This document shows, piece after piece, positions 11,271 to 13,429 of a stretch of DNA of 30,123 nt. The position numbers and the translations under genes are program-made. Source of the DNA: a virus. The stretch lies in IMG/VR virus record IMGVR_UViG_3300025759_000048; one strand, 5' to 3'. Under the pieces are notes generated by a model that saw nothing but the letters and a program-made list of their open reading frames with translations, ran no database searches and had not been told where the DNA came from. The number at the start of each line of letters is the position of its first letter. Positions within the stretch are counted from its first letter, which is position 1.

Positions 11271-11303
11271 AGGGAGGGAGAGTGTCACTCCCTCCCTTTT
11301 TTT
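11271..11303 (+). terminator. Strong GC hairpin with a T-run on the plus strand only
   Basis: AGGGAGGGAG (11271-11280) pairs with CTCCCTCCCT (11288-11297), then TTTTTT. On the minus (coding) strand the hairpin has no U-tail. Confidence 0.5.
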
Positions 11304-11673
11304 ATTGGTTGTGTGGTCGTATTTTGAGCTCGATATGAGGAGTCTCCTCTGAGCTCGCATAATATTTACGTGCATATAGTGATGAGATCACTTTGTCGTC
11401 CTTCAGAGGGAGCGCATCGAGTAAACTCTTTACGCAGTTATCGAGATCGGGTCTCCTGTCGTGTATCACTCTCCCTCCGTATCGAGGGAGCCTTCCGACT
11501 CGGTGAAATACAAATACAATCTCAATATGCAGAGGTCCCTCGGGGAGAGAGATCTGAGAGAGGAGGCTCGCACACTCTCTAACCCACTCCTGATATTTTT
11601 TGGGATAATACACTCCCCCTCCCCGAGTCACTCGAGGTCTGGGACAGGCTCGAGGCTCAATCATTAGTATCAT
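11302..11673 (-). CDS. rusA: RusA-family Holliday junction resolvase
   Basis: PRPRVTRGG..YYPKKY...LHIEIVFVF...RRPDLDNCVKSLLDAL matches the RusA signature (D.DN..K...D). Length 123 aa. Confidence 0.75.
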   Translation of the reverse strand: MILMIEPRACPRPRVTRGGGVYYPKKYQEWVRECASLLSQISLPEGPLHIEIVFVFHRVGRLPRYGGRVIHDRRPDLDNCVKSLLDALPLKDDKVISSLYARKYYASSEETPHIELKIRPHNQ

Positions 11674-11986
11674 TTTTTGATCTCCGATAGGACTCTCGTG
11701 TGATGGGATTGTGTTCTCTCTCCTCTAAATGATAAAGATGTTTACACATAGACGTATAATAGAATCCTGAGCAATTACACGAGCTCCAATCTCTCCCTGA
11801 GTATTTTGAGCGATATATGAGACAGCGATAGACTCCTCTGTCTTTTGAGACGACATCCGCAGCTATGACGAGATATAGCTCTCCGTTGATCTCCCTCCCC
11901 TGAGAGTCGAGATTGATGATCTCGACGTCCTCAGAGGCATCTATAATATGTCGTGAGACGTTACCCATAGAGGACTCCTGACTCAT
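11657..11986 (-). CDS. SWIM zinc-finger protein
   Basis: CNCSGFYYTSMCKHLYH fits the SWIM pattern CxC...CxH. An alternative start at 11968 follows AGGAG-N6. Confidence 0.55.
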   Translation of the reverse strand: MSQESSMGNVSRHIIDASEDVEIINLDSQGREINGELYLVIAADVVSKDRGVYRCLIYRSKYSGRDWSSCNCSGFYYTSMCKHLYHLEEREHNPITRESYRRSKNDTND

Positions 11987-13088
11987 GTATCAATCTCCCT
12001 ATATGCTCAGAGCATTGAGGGACAATTGCATTCCCTAAAGCTCTAAGTTTAGCCACCCGATGGGGAATCCCATCATCCACTCGACAAATTGGGGACGGAG
12101 CCGGGCATCTTTCCCAATAGCCGAACCCTGAGATTGACACAGATCCGATATTGTTTTGGGAAGATTGTTGTCTCTCTTTAATTGGCTGGGCGAGAAATTG
12201 TTTTTTGATGTGTCGACCGTCGGAGTCGGGAGCATCCTCCCTACAAATGCGTTTAGAGATCTCCCTCCGTTGTATTTTTGGATTGTCGGAGCTGTCGGAG
12301 TATGAGCGGCATCCTCTGCTGTCGGAGTGGGGAGCATCATATTGTAAAGGATCGCATCCTTTATCCCAAATGTGCGCTTGTCTGGGATCTTTTTCCCGTT
12401 TACTATCCTTCGAGTGTAGAGGGGCTTGTTCTGTTTTGCTAATGAGATCGCTCTCTCTGTCCTCTCGGGGCTGTTTATGTCTCCCATCGCTGTCGGAGTG
12501 GGGAGCATCATCTCCCCGATGGCTCCGACTAATGTCGCACCATGTCGCCCATCCCTCTCGCTCGGAGAGAGTCTCCTGATCTTTTTGTAGTCCTGAGATG
12601 TCCTCGGAGTAGGCAACACAGAACCATCTCTTTCTGAGATGAGGGGCTCCGAATTGACGAGCGGATATAATTCCCCATTCGCAGCTATACCCGAGTTCGG
12701 TAAGCGATCCAATAACTGATAATCCCCCTCGAAAAGTGACAGCTGAGACGTTTTCCAGCACGATAACTCGAGGTCGTATATCCCTGATAATTCTGTGCAT
12801 TTCCCACCAAAGACCCGATTTTTTCCCATGTAATCCCTCTCCTTTTCCTGCGATTGATATGTCCTGACAGGGGAATCCTCCGCAGAGTAGATCGACAGGC
12901 TCCAAATTATGAGAGGAGACCTCCCTGACGTCGTTATATATTTTTGATTGTGGCCAATGTTTCCGGAGTACCCTCTGACAGAATTTATCTTGTTCGACCT
13001 GCCAGATGGTCTCGCTATTGGGGATGGCTCTCTCTAATCCGAGCTCAAATCCCCCTATCCCTGCAAAAAGGGAGCCGATTTTTATCAT
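11961..13088 (-). CDS. DNA (cytosine-5)-methyltransferase, main frame: motifs I-VIII and X, but no recognisable TRD or motif IX
   Basis: Motifs seen: I LFAGIGGFELG, IV GGFPCQDIS, V SGLWWEMHRII, VI VLENV, VIII QFGAPHLRKRWF and X LGNAIVPQ. The start was set to the ATG at 13088, which follows GGAGGGAGA-N4 and overlaps the upstream stop as ATGA. Confidence 0.85.
   Translation of the reverse strand: MIKIGSLFAGIGGFELGLERAIPNSETIWQVEQDKFCQRVLRKHWPQSKIYNDVREVSSHNLEPVDLLCGGFPCQDISIAGKGEGLHGKKSGLWWEMHRIIRDIRPRVIVLENVSAVTFRGGLSVIGSLTELGYSCEWGIISARQFGAPHLRKRWFCVAYSEDISGLQKDQETLSEREGWATWCDISRSHRGDDAPHSDSDGRHKQPREDRESDLISKTEQAPLHSKDSKREKDPRQAHIWDKGCDPLQYDAPHSDSRGCRSYSDSSDNPKIQRREISKRICREDAPDSDGRHIKKQFLAQPIKERQQSSQNNIGSVSISGFGYWERCPAPSPICRVDDGIPHRVAKLRALGNAIVPQCSEHIGRLIHESGVLYG
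12035..12829 (-). CDS. Nested +1-frame ORF (264 aa) inside the C5-MTase gene, encoding TRD-like LPTPT/R repeats and a motif-IX-like element
   Basis: AAGGAGAGGG-ATTAC-ATG provides a start signal. LPTP occurs four times, at 12616-12605, 12505-12494, 12334-12323 and 12232-12221. The C-terminus reads PQFVEWMMGFPIGW. This is by far the longest same-strand alternative-frame ORF in the window. Confidence 0.55.
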   Translation of the reverse strand: MGKNRVFGGKCTELSGIYDLELSCWKTSQLSLFEGDYQLLDRLPNSGIAANGELYPLVNSEPLISERDGSVLPTPRTSQDYKKIRRLSPSERDGRHGATLVGAIGEMMLPTPTAMGDINSPERTERAISLAKQNKPLYTRRIVNGKKIPDKRTFGIKDAILYNMMLPTPTAEDAAHTPTAPTIQKYNGGRSLNAFVGRMLPTPTVDTSKNNFSPSQLKRDNNLPKTISDLCQSQGSAIGKDARLRPQFVEWMMGFPIGWLNLEL

Positions 13089-13429
13089 TTGCTCTCCCTC
13101 CATGCTGTGATTGTGGTGTCGATCTCCTCTTTTATGAGGTCTGCTTTTATGTCGAGATGTCTCTCAAAATAGCGAGCGATTATCCAATAGACGAGATGAG
13201 AGGGGATATATCCATAAAACCATTTTTTAGCAGTATTGAGCTTTACTCCGCAGAGCCGAGCCAGCTCAGGAAGTGAGAATCTGTCTCCGACCTGAGTCCT
13301 ATATTTTGTCAGTAATATCCCGAGCTCAGGACATCGAAGGGGGTCGGGGATCTTCTCCTTTTTTGGGGATCGTGACTGAGAGGGGGGAGGCTCCTGAGGA
13401 AGGATATTTTTATCAAAAGATCTCCTCAT
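13085..13429 (-). CDS. Putative HTH DNA-binding protein (114 aa)
   Basis: LPELARLCGVKLNTAKKWFYG looks like an HTH. ATGA overlaps occur at both ends. Confidence 0.5.
   Translation of the reverse strand: MRRSFDKNILPQEPPPSQSRSPKKEKIPDPLRCPELGILLTKYRTQVGDRFSLPELARLCGVKLNTAKKWFYGYIPSHLVYWIIARYFERHLDIKADLIKEEIDTTITAWRESK

What the first reader, a model, noticed from the sequence alone, without database searches (positions are those of the whole stretch)
11961..13103. C5 methyltransferase whose target-recognition region and motif IX are encoded by a 264-codon ORF nested in its own +1 frame
**Main frame (13088-11961).** It has C5-MTase motifs I, IV, V, VI, VIII and X. The roughly 180 codons between VIII and X should hold the TRD and motif IX. 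Instead they translate to a low-complexity Asp/Ser/Arg string (DAPHSDSDGRH, DAPHSDSRGCRS, DAPDSDGRH).

**Nested +1 frame (12829-12035).** The same DNA is open for 264 codons in the +1 frame and starts at an ATG preceded by AAGGAGAGGG-N5. It encodes what the main frame lacks:
- P.SG...NGELY...SEP..E.DGS.LPTP, then four (M)LPTPT/R repeats. This matches the variable region of phage-type C5-MTases as I remember it.
- PQFVEWMMGFPIGW, which resembles motif IX (E..R.mGFP).

**Overlaps.** The nested ORF overlaps motifs V-VIII at its 5' end. Its EWMMGFPIGW codons overlap RVDDGIPHRVAKLRALGN in the main frame.

**Chance or error looks unlikely.** Other same-strand shadow ORFs in this genome reach at most about 130 codons. 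All other long genes, up to 1093 codons, are intact.

**Possible explanations.**
1. A nested alpha/beta heterodimeric MTase. As I recall, M.EcoHK31I has motifs I-VIII and X in alpha, with beta encoded inside the alpha gene in another frame and supplying motif IX. M.AquI is split into two overlapping ORFs.
2. +1 then -1 recoding that gives a single polypeptide.
3. Two compensating indels from assembly error or decay.
Basis: partly seen in the sequence, partly recalled or inferred. Interest (0 to 1): 0.85.

Follow-up and report, generated by a model that had tools for sequence, protein, structure and literature searches.

The report
Phage methyltransferase with nested second subunit
A phage DNA cytosine methyltransferase gene carries a second gene inside it in a shifted reading frame; evolution keeps both frames intact in hundreds of related phages, so the enzyme is most likely built from two proteins read from the same DNA, an arrangement described so far for one bacterial enzyme.

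Summary
A C5-methyltransferase ORF (alpha, 11961-13088/13103, minus strand) fully encloses a 264-codon ORF (beta, 12035-12829) in its +1 frame.

It is not an assembly error. An independent metagenome contig differs by 1 nt. A relative with 85% identical alpha differs by one in-frame 111-nt deletion. 78 of 80 loci found through beta alone have the same nesting.

Both frames are under selection:
- Alpha has no stops where synonymous shuffles of beta expect 4.4 per locus (7.0 in the window).
- Beta's third codon positions vary most across the LPTPT region and motif IX.
- Alpha's synonymous sites are constrained where they overlap beta's N-terminus (P=4.5e-6).

No frameshift signals were found.

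Alpha holds motifs I-VIII and X, joined by a spacer of about 165 residues that is predicted disordered and is not conserved. Beta holds an N-terminal module, 1-4 LPTPT modules and motif IX; with alpha's motif X it aligns to M.HhaI 267-319.

Best reading: a two-subunit enzyme of the M.EcoHK31I type, here a phage orphan. Activity and dimerisation are inferred, not shown. The beta family is large (25,458 clusters) and is missing from Pfam and NCBIfam.

The parts
11961..13088 (-). Alpha ORF (375 aa plus stop): the C5-methyltransferase large subunit. An alternative upstream ATG lies at 13103.
   Evidence: - One search lists the ORF.
- Pfam PF00145 5.3e-48; TIGR00675 4.1e-41.
- P0247 is the identical 375-aa product called on an independent contig.
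- The ATG at 13088 overlaps the upstream ORF's stop as ATGA.
12035..12829 (-). Beta ORF (264 aa plus stop), entirely inside alpha in the +1 frame.
   Evidence: - One search lists the ORF.
- phrog_1008 1.4e-20.
- 378 small stand-alone homologues.
- 25,458 representative clusters.
- Nested in 78 of 80 related loci.
12835..12844 (-). Shine-Dalgarno-like AAGGAGAGGG, 5 nt upstream of the beta ATG. In the alpha frame it encodes part of GKGEGL.
   Evidence: Sequence. GGAG, GAGG or AGGA lies within -18..-4 of the beta ATG in 32 of 39 non-redundant loci.
13050..13067 (-). Alpha motif I (FAGIGG), the AdoMet-binding loop.
   Evidence: Aligned to M.HhaI FAGLGG.
12864..12878 (-). Alpha motif IV (GFPCQ), holding the catalytic cysteine.
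   Evidence: Aligned to M.HhaI GFPCQ. Invariant in alignment A3.
12747..12755 (-). Alpha motif VI (ENV). The same bases read W-K-T in beta.
   Evidence: The coupling LENV <-> W[KR][TM] is read directly from the sequence.
12621..12656 (-). Alpha motif VIII (QFGAPHLRKRWF). It overlaps beta SEPLISERDGS.
   Evidence: Aligned to M.HhaI YGIPQKRERIY.
12063..12593 (-). Alpha spacer (about residues 166-342): hydrophilic, low-complexity, kept free of stops but not conserved as protein.
   Evidence: - AF2 pLDDT below 50 and no secondary structure for residues 178-342.
- Alpha codon position 1 (= beta position 3) varies most here.
- 0 stops observed against 7.0 expected.
12015..12038 (-). Alpha motif X (LGNAIVPQ). 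The beta stop codon TAG (12035-12037) sits inside alpha's Leu-Gly codons.
   Evidence: - Invariant L351, G352, N353, A354, V356, P357, Q358.
- Aligned to M.HhaI FGNSVV.
- AF2 helix 355-370 at pLDDT 84-94.
- Stop-codon context.
12614..12829 (-). Beta N-terminal module (residues 1-72: M.K..VFGGKC...W[KR]T.Q.S...LP.SG...G.LY.L...E...DG). It overlaps alpha motifs V-VIII.
   Evidence: - Conserved in A1: M1, V6, G8, W25, P44, G47, G52 and L54 are invariant.
- Alpha 4-fold synonymous sites are identical in 0.54 of sequence pairs here, against 0.32-0.33 outside beta; per-column Mann-Whitney P=4.5e-6.
12101..12616 (-). Beta variable region: four LPTPT-anchored modules (residues 72-243), the presumed target-recognition part.
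   Evidence: - Beta codon positions 1/2/3 vary 0.40/0.36/0.63.
- Module number runs from 1 to 4 among relatives.
- The close relative L173 lacks exactly the first module through a 111-nt in-frame deletion.
12053..12100 (-). Beta motif IX (LRPQFVEWMMGFPIGW). The same bases read CRVDDGIPHRV in alpha, a sequence largely forced by beta.
   Evidence: - M252, M253, G254, F255 and P256 are invariant.
- Beta positions 1/2/3 vary 0.07/0.12/0.44.
- hhalign to M.HhaI 267-290 (RKLHPRECARVMGYPDSY): P=0.025 for beta alone, P=3.4e-4 together with alpha's motif X.

Best explanation
The locus encodes a phage 'orphan' DNA cytosine-5 methyltransferase made of two polypeptides read from the same DNA in two frames.

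**Alpha (375 aa)**
- It carries the complete catalytic large domain: motifs I-VIII at the N-terminus and the motif X helix at the C-terminus.
- These parts are joined by a disordered spacer of about 165 residues. The spacer's only selected property is that it contains no stop codon.

**Beta (264 aa)**
- It starts at its own ATG with a Shine-Dalgarno-like sequence inside alpha, in the +1 frame.
- It carries what alpha lacks: one to four LPTPT-anchored variable modules (presumed target recognition) and motif IX. In single-chain enzymes such as M.HhaI these make up the small domain.
- It also has a conserved N-terminal module of about 70 residues that overlaps alpha's motifs V-VIII. By analogy with M.EcoHK31I beta, I infer that this module docks beta onto alpha.

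**How it works**
- The two chains assemble into one enzyme that methylates the phage's own DNA, probably as protection against host restriction.

**Shown versus inferred**
- Shown: the nesting, its conservation, selection on both frames, and the placement of the motifs.
- Inferred: translation of both products, heterodimer formation, activity, specificity and biological role.
For: **The sequence is real**
- Contig L174, from a different metagenome, differs by 1 nt over alpha.
- L173 (alpha 85% aa identity) differs by 41 substitutions and one 111-nt in-frame deletion that removes exactly one LPTPT module. Both frames stay open.

**The architecture is conserved**
- Loci retrieved only through beta (pattern MMGFP, then tblastn) show an enclosing PCQ/ENV ORF, with beta in the +1 frame and motif X in alpha, in 78 of 80 cases.
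- The same holds in L002 and L004.
- It is also seen in a Bacillus toyonensis plasmid and an E. coli prophage, where only alpha is annotated.

**The alpha frame is kept open by selection**
- In 39 non-redundant loci, synonymous-codon shuffles of beta expect 4.4 alpha-frame stops (7.0 in the window); none is observed.
- The per-locus probability of zero stops has a geometric mean of 0.003.
- The third frame has as many stops as expected: 9.15 observed against 8.84.

**Beta is protein-coding**
- Beta codon position 3 is the most variable through the LPTPT region (0.40/0.36/0.63) and motif IX (0.07/0.12/0.44).
- In the close pair, substitutions in the overlap fall 17/4/8 on alpha positions 1/2/3, against 3/0/9 outside it.

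**Beta's N-terminus is also selected**
- Alpha 4-fold sites match in 0.54 of pairs in the overlap, against 0.32 and 0.33 on either side; P=4.5e-6 per column.

**Motif placement**
- Alpha aligns to M.HhaI 15-176.
- The AF2 model gives residues 1-165 and 353-375 with confidence and 178-342 as disordered. Foldseek matches it to M.HhaI at E=2.7e-15.
- Beta's last module and motif IX, joined to alpha's motif X, align to M.HhaI 267-319 at P=3.4e-4.

**Precedent**
- M.EcoHK31I beta lies wholly within alpha in another frame. Alpha has motifs I-VIII and X, beta has IX, and both are needed. N-terminal deletions of beta weaken its association with alpha (PMC2836561, PMC3404938).

**No restriction enzyme nearby**
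- The neighbours are HTH regulators, RusA, a primase/helicase and a polymerase exonuclease.
Against: - There is no direct evidence that either protein is made, that they bind each other, or that the pair methylates DNA.
- AF2 on beta alone gave a poor model (pLDDT 56) with no structural match.
- The beta profile has no sequence hit in the PDB.
- Pfam PF00145 does not score an A-B-A chimera higher than alpha alone.
- The motif IX assignment rests on one pairwise profile alignment (P=3.4e-4, HH probability 38%) plus the motif pattern.
- Part of beta's N-terminal conservation is forced by alpha's conserved motifs (LENV gives W[KR][TM]; W-G gives GGG), so only the synonymous-site excess counts as evidence for it.
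- I could not test homology to M.EcoHK31I itself because its sequence could not be obtained.
- The literature places the EcoHK31I TRD in alpha, not beta.
Confidence: 0.8

Rival explanations
1. Double programmed recoding. Ribosomes shift +1 from alpha into beta after motif VIII and shift back (-1) after motif IX, producing a single canonical polypeptide I-VIII/TRD/IX/X.
For: An A-B-A chimera has the canonical motif order. The window chimera aligns to PF00145 positions 2-320 of 324, and its C-terminal part is collinear with M.HhaI 267-319.
Against: - If the spacer were bypassed, the alpha frame there would not need to stay open. Yet it is stop-free in all 39 loci against 4.4 stops expected.
- Beta's first 70 or so codons would not be translated. 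Yet they have a conserved ATG and a Shine-Dalgarno-like sequence, and they constrain alpha's synonymous sites.
- An X_XXY_YYZ heptamer lies between motif IX and the beta stop in only 2 of 39 loci. A homopolymer of 6 or more bases follows motif VIII in only 3 of 37.
- Two efficient shifts in one gene would have no precedent that I know of.
Confidence: 0.04
2. Artefact or decay: two compensating indels from assembly error, or a pseudogene.
For: The layout looks like a canonical gene with a +1 shift and a later -1 shift. One E. coli copy is annotated as a pseudogene with an internal stop.
Against: - An independent contig differs by 1 nt, and an 85%-identical relative keeps both frames.
- The same nesting is found in 78 of 80 loci whose beta is only 27-60% identical to the window's.
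- Both frames carry signatures of purifying selection.
Confidence: 0.01
3. Both proteins are made but do not form one enzyme. Alpha is an autonomous methyltransferase (for example with relaxed specificity). Beta has a separate role, such as a regulator, a DNA-binding protein, or a partner of another protein.
For: - Alpha contains every catalytic and cofactor motif.
- Beta alone has no detectable fold match.
- The beta-like superfamily is very large and includes long multi-module proteins.
Against: - Beta ends in a motif IX that is collinear with alpha's motif X when compared with M.HhaI.
- Alpha has no conserved sequence between motifs VIII and X to bind DNA specifically.
- Beta was enclosed by a C5-methyltransferase ORF in nearly every locus examined. 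In actinophages it partly overlaps the end of a shorter alpha ORF.
- In M.EcoHK31I neither chain is active alone (PMC2836561).
Confidence: 0.12

Closest known systems
M.EcoHK31I (E. coli HK31, YGGCCR), a heterodimeric C5-methyltransferase
   Same: - Beta is encoded entirely inside alpha in another reading frame.
[quoted passage not shown]
- The subunit sizes are similar. The plasmid names pET3a-M38 and pET3a-C23 (PMC2836561) suggest about 38 and 23 kDa; I calculate about 43 and 30 kDa here, and relatives have alpha of 309 aa with beta of 187 aa.
- The N-terminal part of beta is dispensable for chemistry but important for association with alpha. That matches a separate conserved N-terminal module here.
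   Different: - EcoHK31I belongs to a restriction-modification system, whereas this is a phage orphan in a replication module.
- The literature places the EcoHK31I TRD in alpha. Here the alpha segment between motifs VIII and X is an unconserved, disordered spacer, and the conserved variable modules are in beta.
- Sequence homology between the two could not be tested.
M.AquI (CYCGRG), a two-subunit C5-methyltransferase, and the actinophage split methylases (e.g. Mycobacterium phage Stasia gp76/gp75, Streptomyces phages Sebastisaurus and Samy)
   Same: - Two polypeptides, with the split lying after motif VIII.
- In the actinophages, the beta ORF (phrog_1008) is homologous to the window's beta. 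It likewise overlaps the DNA encoding alpha's motifs VI-VIII by 170-270 nt in the +1 frame.
   Different: In these systems alpha stops soon after motif VIII and motif X lies in beta, so the overlap is partial and not nested. In the window, motif X is back in the alpha frame and alpha reads through the whole of beta.
Canonical single-chain C5-methyltransferases (M.HhaI, M.HaeIII; Pfam PF00145)
   Same: Same motifs in the same order, and the same large-domain fold for alpha.
   Different: The small domain (variable region plus motif IX) sits on a separate chain. The IX-X loop is 8 residues shorter than in M.HhaI. There is an extra beta N-terminal module.
Multispecific Bacillus phage C5-methyltransferases (M.SPRI, M.phi3TI)
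   Same: Phage-encoded, with a variable region built from a varying number of tandem modules. This comparison is from my own knowledge; the module counts here are.
   Different: Those enzymes are single chains. Whether each LPTPT module recognises a separate target is untested.

Membership tests
C5 DNA methyltransferase (PF00145 / TIGR00675) | Significant match to the family model, with motifs I, IV, VI and VIII | tested here: met
   PF00145 5.3e-48. TIGR00675 4.1e-41, above its cut-off. Alignment to M.HhaI 15-176. Foldseek E=2.7e-15.
C5 DNA methyltransferase (PF00145 / TIGR00675) | Motifs IX and X present and collinear in one chain | tested here: not met
   Motif X is in alpha and motif IX is only in the +1 frame (beta). 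They become collinear with M.HhaI 267-319 only when the two frames are joined.
M.EcoHK31I-type nested heterodimeric C5-methyltransferase | Beta ORF lies wholly inside the alpha ORF in another frame of the same strand | tested here: met
   Conserved in 78 of 80 related loci.
M.EcoHK31I-type nested heterodimeric C5-methyltransferase | Alpha carries motifs I-VIII and X | tested here: met
M.EcoHK31I-type nested heterodimeric C5-methyltransferase | Beta carries motif IX | tested here: met
   The invariant MMGFP block ends beta. hhalign to M.HhaI motif IX gives P=0.025 alone and P=3.4e-4 with motif X. Support is moderate.
M.EcoHK31I-type nested heterodimeric C5-methyltransferase | TRD located in alpha, as the literature describes | tested here: not met
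   The alpha segment between motifs VIII and X is unconserved and predicted disordered. Selection acts on the beta frame there.
M.EcoHK31I-type nested heterodimeric C5-methyltransferase | Both polypeptides required for methylation; they form a heterodimer | not testable with these tools
   This needs expression and activity assays. The structure tool accepted only single chains from this window or from the protein search.
M.EcoHK31I-type nested heterodimeric C5-methyltransferase | Sequence homology to M.EcoHK31I alpha and beta | not tested
   The sequence was not obtainable: PMC306636 is not held and there are no supplements.
M.EcoHK31I-type nested heterodimeric C5-methyltransferase | Partnered with a cognate restriction endonuclease | tested here: not met
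   The neighbours are phage regulators, RusA and a primase/helicase. The two immediate neighbours tested have no PADLOC hit.
M.AquI-type split C5-methyltransferase | Alpha holds I-VIII only; beta holds the distal variable region plus IX and X | tested here: not met
   In the window motif X is in alpha and beta stops inside alpha's L-G-N codons. The actinophage relatives do meet this.
Programmed ribosomal frameshifting gene | Conserved slippery site at the frame junctions | tested here: not met
   Slippery heptamers in 2 of 39 loci and homopolymers in 3 of 37.

The most novel reading that the evidence does not exclude
The nested or overlapping two-chain layout may be a common, largely unannotated way in which phages and prophages build C5-methyltransferases, rather than a one-off curiosity.

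- The beta family has 25,458 clusters at 50% identity and no Pfam or NCBIfam model.
- PGAP annotates only alpha in the Bacillus and E. coli examples.

In this reading, beta is a modular specificity subunit supplied in trans. Its LPTPT modules are gained, lost and reshuffled to change or multiply target specificity.

Alpha's spacer would then be a rare case of a long coding segment (about 165-180 codons here) selected only to remain open.

M.EcoHK31I would be a member of this family, and its 'TRD in alpha' would be a misassignment.
Probability: 0.3. Interest if true: 0.8.

Novelty: new member of a known kind. Interest (0 to 1): 0.6.

Why it matters
**For methyltransferase biology**
- Reviews cite only two natural two-subunit C5-methyltransferases, M.AquI and M.EcoHK31I (PMC3404938).
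- This locus shows the EcoHK31I-type nesting in a phage. It is conserved across hundreds of loci, with clear and separable selection on each frame.
- The split follows domain lines: alpha is the large catalytic domain and beta is the small recognition domain.

**For annotation**
- Gene callers and PGAP report only one of the two ORFs.
- As a result, many phage 'DNA cytosine methyltransferases' with a low-complexity middle are probably alpha subunits whose partner is missing from the databases.

**For the study of overlapping genes**
- This is a 795-nt same-strand nested pair in a dsDNA phage.
- Which frame is constrained changes along the gene: alpha only, then both, then beta only with alpha merely kept open, then alpha only.

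**For applications**
- Natural split methyltransferases have served as scaffolds for targeted methylation (PMC2836561).
- A large family with modular beta subunits would widen that toolbox.

Tried and rejected
**Tests that gave nothing useful**
- Pfam on A-B-A chimeras from the window, L004 and L169: scores did not rise (159.8 against 164.5 bits for the window), so the test is uninformative.
- Pfam on beta-like proteins that carry IX and X in one chain: no hits.
- Beta profile (A1), and the chimeric 'beta motif IX plus alpha motif X' profile (A2), against PDB sequences: no methyltransferase hit.
- AF2 of beta alone: pLDDT 56, and Foldseek found nothing.
- NCBIfam and PADLOC: no model for beta.

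**Things I could not obtain or run**
- The original M.EcoHK31I paper and its sequence: not held.
- blastn of the window gene against E. coli genomes found only a 113-nt motif IV match. That match did lead to a nested prophage example.
- I considered a linker-fused alpha+beta prediction with a paired alignment.

**Other checks**
- The genome-contig scan gave only distant, mostly C-terminal matches.
- Frameshift signals: none conserved.
- PDB entry 3g7u (a prophage CP-933R methylase) is not specially related.
- Single-linkage clustering of LPTPT modules was too coarse to define module types. Only the module counts are reliable.
Full report
**1. The observation**

The window carries, on the minus strand, an ORF at 11961..13103 (380 aa) and a fully nested ORF at 12035..12829 (264 aa).
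- The likely alpha start is the ATG at 13088. It overlaps the stop of the upstream ORF as ATGA, and relatives and the gene call on an independent contig begin MIKIGS.
- 13088-12829 = 259 = 3x86+1, so beta is in alpha's +1 frame.
The beta ATG is preceded by AAGGAGAGGG-ATTAC.
- Pfam PF00145 matches alpha only over residues 8-226, profile positions 2-214 of 324.
- Beta has no Pfam, NCBIfam or PADLOC match. It does hit phrog_1008 'DNA methyltransferase' at 1.4e-20.
- The next longest same-strand shadow ORF in the window is 133 aa.

**2. Not an artefact**

- A JGI contig from another metagenome (L174) differs from the window by 1 nt across alpha.
- An NCBI metagenome contig (L173, alpha 85% identical) differs by 41 substitutions and a single 111-nt deletion. 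The deletion is in frame for both ORFs and removes exactly the first LPTPT module of beta.
- In that pair, substitutions inside the overlap fall 17/4/8 on alpha codon positions 1/2/3. Outside the overlap they fall 3/0/9.

**3. The arrangement is conserved**

- A search with beta found 378 proteins. Those listed are 145-283 aa long, and only one carries a Pfam domain.
- The contigs of two hits (beta 35% and 45% identical to the window's) show the same nesting.
- An IMG/VR scan seeded only by beta (peptide pattern MMGFP, confirmed by tblastn) found 426 relatives. In 78 of the 80 loci kept, a PCQ/ENV-containing ORF fully encloses beta, beta is in the +1 frame, and a GN[AGS][VIL] motif X lies in alpha. 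Of the other two, one has an alpha that ends inside beta and one is cut by the contig end.
- The same nesting occurs in a Bacillus toyonensis plasmid: alpha of 251 aa is annotated, beta of 164 aa is not.
- It also occurs in an E. coli prophage. There alpha (601-1338) and beta (605-1360) overlap almost completely and PGAP annotates only alpha.

**4. Both frames are under selection (39 non-redundant loci)**

(a) Alpha is kept open.
- I shuffled synonymous codons within beta, from after alpha's motif VIII to beta's stop.
- The shuffles expect a mean of 4.4 alpha-frame stops (7.0 in the window). None is observed in any locus.
- The per-locus probability of zero stops has a geometric mean of 0.003 and was 0 of 2000 for the window.
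- The remaining frame behaves as expected, with 9.15 stops observed against 8.84.

(b) Codon-position variability (mean pairwise difference at positions 1/2/3).
- Alpha before beta: 0.32/0.21/0.61.
- Alpha after beta: 0.36/0.21/0.64.
- In the LPTPT region the pattern switches to the beta frame: beta positions 0.40/0.36/0.63.
- At motif IX: beta positions 0.07/0.12/0.44.
- So alpha's middle is not selected as protein; it is only kept open.

(c) Beta's N-terminus is selected as well.
- At 4-fold degenerate alpha codons with the same amino acid, the third base is identical in 0.32 of sequence pairs before beta and 0.33 after it.
- It is identical in 0.54 of pairs between the beta start and motif VIII. 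The per-column Mann-Whitney test gives P=4.5e-6.
- Some of beta's conservation there is forced by alpha (LENV reads W[KR][TM] in +1), so only the synonymous-site excess counts as evidence.

(d) Start and stop of beta.
- A Shine-Dalgarno-like tetramer precedes the beta ATG in 32 of 39 loci.
- The beta stop is usually a TAG formed inside alpha's A-L-G of motif X.

**5. Anatomy and likely mechanism**

Alpha:
- It aligns to M.HhaI 15-176, covering motifs I-VIII.
- AF2 with 48 homologues gives residues 1-165 at pLDDT around 90.
- Residues 178-342 fall below 50 with no secondary structure.
- A C-terminal helix at 355-370 scores 84-94.
- Foldseek returns M.HhaI at E=2.7e-15 over 167 columns with rmsd 2.0.

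Motifs IX and X:
- I built a profile from beta's last module and motif IX joined to alpha's C-terminus.
- It aligns to M.HhaI 267-319, that is RKLHPRECARVMGYPDSY (motif IX) and FGNSVV (motif X), with a loop 8 residues shorter; P=3.4e-4.
- Beta alone aligns to 267-290 at P=0.025.

Interpretation:
- In M.HhaI, from established structural knowledge, motifs I-VIII and X form the large domain, and the variable region plus IX forms the small domain.
- The two frames here therefore correspond to the two domains.
- Beta's extra N-terminal module of about 70 residues parallels the N-terminal part of M.EcoHK31I beta. Deleting that part weakens association with alpha but can be bypassed by tethering (PMC2836561).
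- I infer internal initiation of beta, assembly of the two chains, and methylation of phage DNA.
- No endonuclease is nearby. The gene sits among HTH regulators, RusA, a primase/helicase and a polymerase exonuclease, in a phage genome that also carries portal and tail genes.

**6. Rival explanations**

- Double recoding predicts that alpha's spacer and beta's N-terminus are free to decay. Both are maintained, and no slippery sites are conserved.
- Assembly error or pseudogene is excluded by sections 2-4.
- An autonomous alpha with an unrelated beta cannot be excluded without experiments. It fits poorly with the collinear IX/X pair, with alpha's lack of any conserved DNA-recognition segment, and with beta's constant link to a methyltransferase ORF.

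**7. Relation to what is known**

- The literature lists two natural two-subunit C5-methyltransferases (PMC3404938).
  - M.AquI: alpha holds I-VIII and beta holds IX-X.
  - M.EcoHK31I: beta is nested in alpha in another frame, alpha holds I-VIII and X, and beta holds IX.
- The window matches the second layout.
- Actinophage relatives match the first. Mycobacterium phages made up 128 of the 146 phage records with a beta match. In the three actinophage loci I read, alpha stops after motif VIII and a phrog_1008 beta carries IX and X, but the beta ORF still overlaps alpha's motif VI-VIII DNA by 170-270 nt in the +1 frame.
- A shared ancestor that already had that overlap, followed by a frame change between IX and X, is a plausible origin. 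This is inference.
- Differences from the published description of EcoHK31I:
  - This is a phage orphan with no restriction enzyme.
  - The conserved variable modules are in beta, whereas the EcoHK31I TRD was predicted to lie in alpha.
- EcoHK31I beta is about 23 kDa, judged from the plasmid name pET3a-C23, and it tolerates a 67-residue N-terminal deletion. I therefore suspect that it has the same organisation, but I could not obtain its sequence.

**8. Scale**

- A profile of beta finds 25,458 clusters at 50% identity with E<=1e-3, and 11,902 with E<=1e-10.
- Of the 246 proteins held from the beta searches, 237 have the MGFP-type motif IX, 3 also have motif X, and none has PCQ plus ENV.
- Alpha homologues number more than 7,754; those listed all carry PF00145 and are 239-375 aa long.
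- Beta carries 1-4 LPTPT modules in different relatives. The window has four.
- Whether each module is a separate target-recogniser, as in multispecific Bacillus phage methyltransferases, is speculation.

**9. Verdict**

- It is a new, phage-borne member of the rare EcoHK31I-type nested two-subunit C5-methyltransferases. Comparative evidence that both frames are functional is strong.
- The biochemistry is untested.
- Interest is moderate to high. The kind is known, but it appears far more widespread than the literature or current annotation suggests.

Noticed in passing
window 12151-12579 (+): A 142-codon ORF is open on the opposite strand, inside the dual-coding region. It may be a by-product of the stop-codon avoidance imposed by the two sense frames.
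   Followed up: no
window 13085-13103: The alpha ATG at 13088 overlaps the stop of the upstream 114-aa ORF (13085-13429) as ATGA, which suggests translational coupling. The longer 380-aa form starting at 13103 is probably not the real start.
   Followed up: partly
window 11657-11986 (-): A 109-aa ORF overlaps alpha's 3' end by 26 nt. It contains a Cys/His pattern, CNCSGFYYTSMCKHLYH, that resembles a SWIM-type zinc finger. It has no PHROG or PADLOC hit. A RusA-like resolvase follows at 11302-11673.
   Followed up: partly
L172 601-1360 (E. coli PT62 prophage, NZ_CP090448.1); L171 (E. coli PCP07014): In an E. coli lambdoid prophage, alpha (245 aa, GTG start at 601) and beta (251 aa, ATG at 605) overlap over almost their whole lengths. 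PGAP annotates only alpha. In strain PCP07014 the gene is marked as a pseudogene with an internal stop.
   Followed up: partly
L006 1177-1911 (Mycobacterium phage Stasia), L007 1159-1980, L008 1165-2226: In actinophages the second 'DNA methylase' gene is annotated as starting well downstream (e.g. Stasia gp75 at 1324). Homology to beta's N-terminal module extends upstream into the overlap with the first gene (match from 1201; the ORF is open from 1177). The annotated starts may be too short.
   Followed up: partly
L173 versus window 12500-12610: The close relative lacks 111 nt that correspond exactly to one LPTPT module (LPTPRTSQDYKKIRRLSPSERDGRHGATLVGAIGEMM). Modules are therefore gained or lost as in-frame units that keep both frames open.
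   Followed up: yes
P0114 (ENA contig, 237 aa): In one called protein, alpha's N-terminus (motifs I-IV, ...WPCQSIS) runs straight into the beta frame (...GGKCIELLATYN...). It is either a natural fusion or deletion variant, or a sequencing frameshift.
   Followed up: no
L170 1080-2199 (Bacteroides finegoldii plasmid NZ_OY725938.1); L025: These variants have an alpha frame that stops after motif VIII while a long beta continues. In L170 a detached alpha-frame remnant ends before motif X. They may be decaying copies or intermediates between the nested and split layouts.
   Followed up: no
P0168 (660 aa), P0174, P0203, P0227, P0233: Long beta-like proteins carry up to about a dozen LLPTP/WPTP modules and a conserved N-terminal extension (MSW.Y..., ...SLEDS...). 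P0168 and P0227 also have motif X in the same chain. None has the catalytic motifs.
   Followed up: no
window 1-30123: The window looks like most of a tailed-phage genome of about 30 kb, at about 47% GC. It has a portal-like protein, head-decoration and tail-fibre-like proteins, a 1093-aa ORF with no PHROG hit, and a replication module around the methyltransferase. Nearly all large ORFs are on the minus strand.
   Followed up: partly
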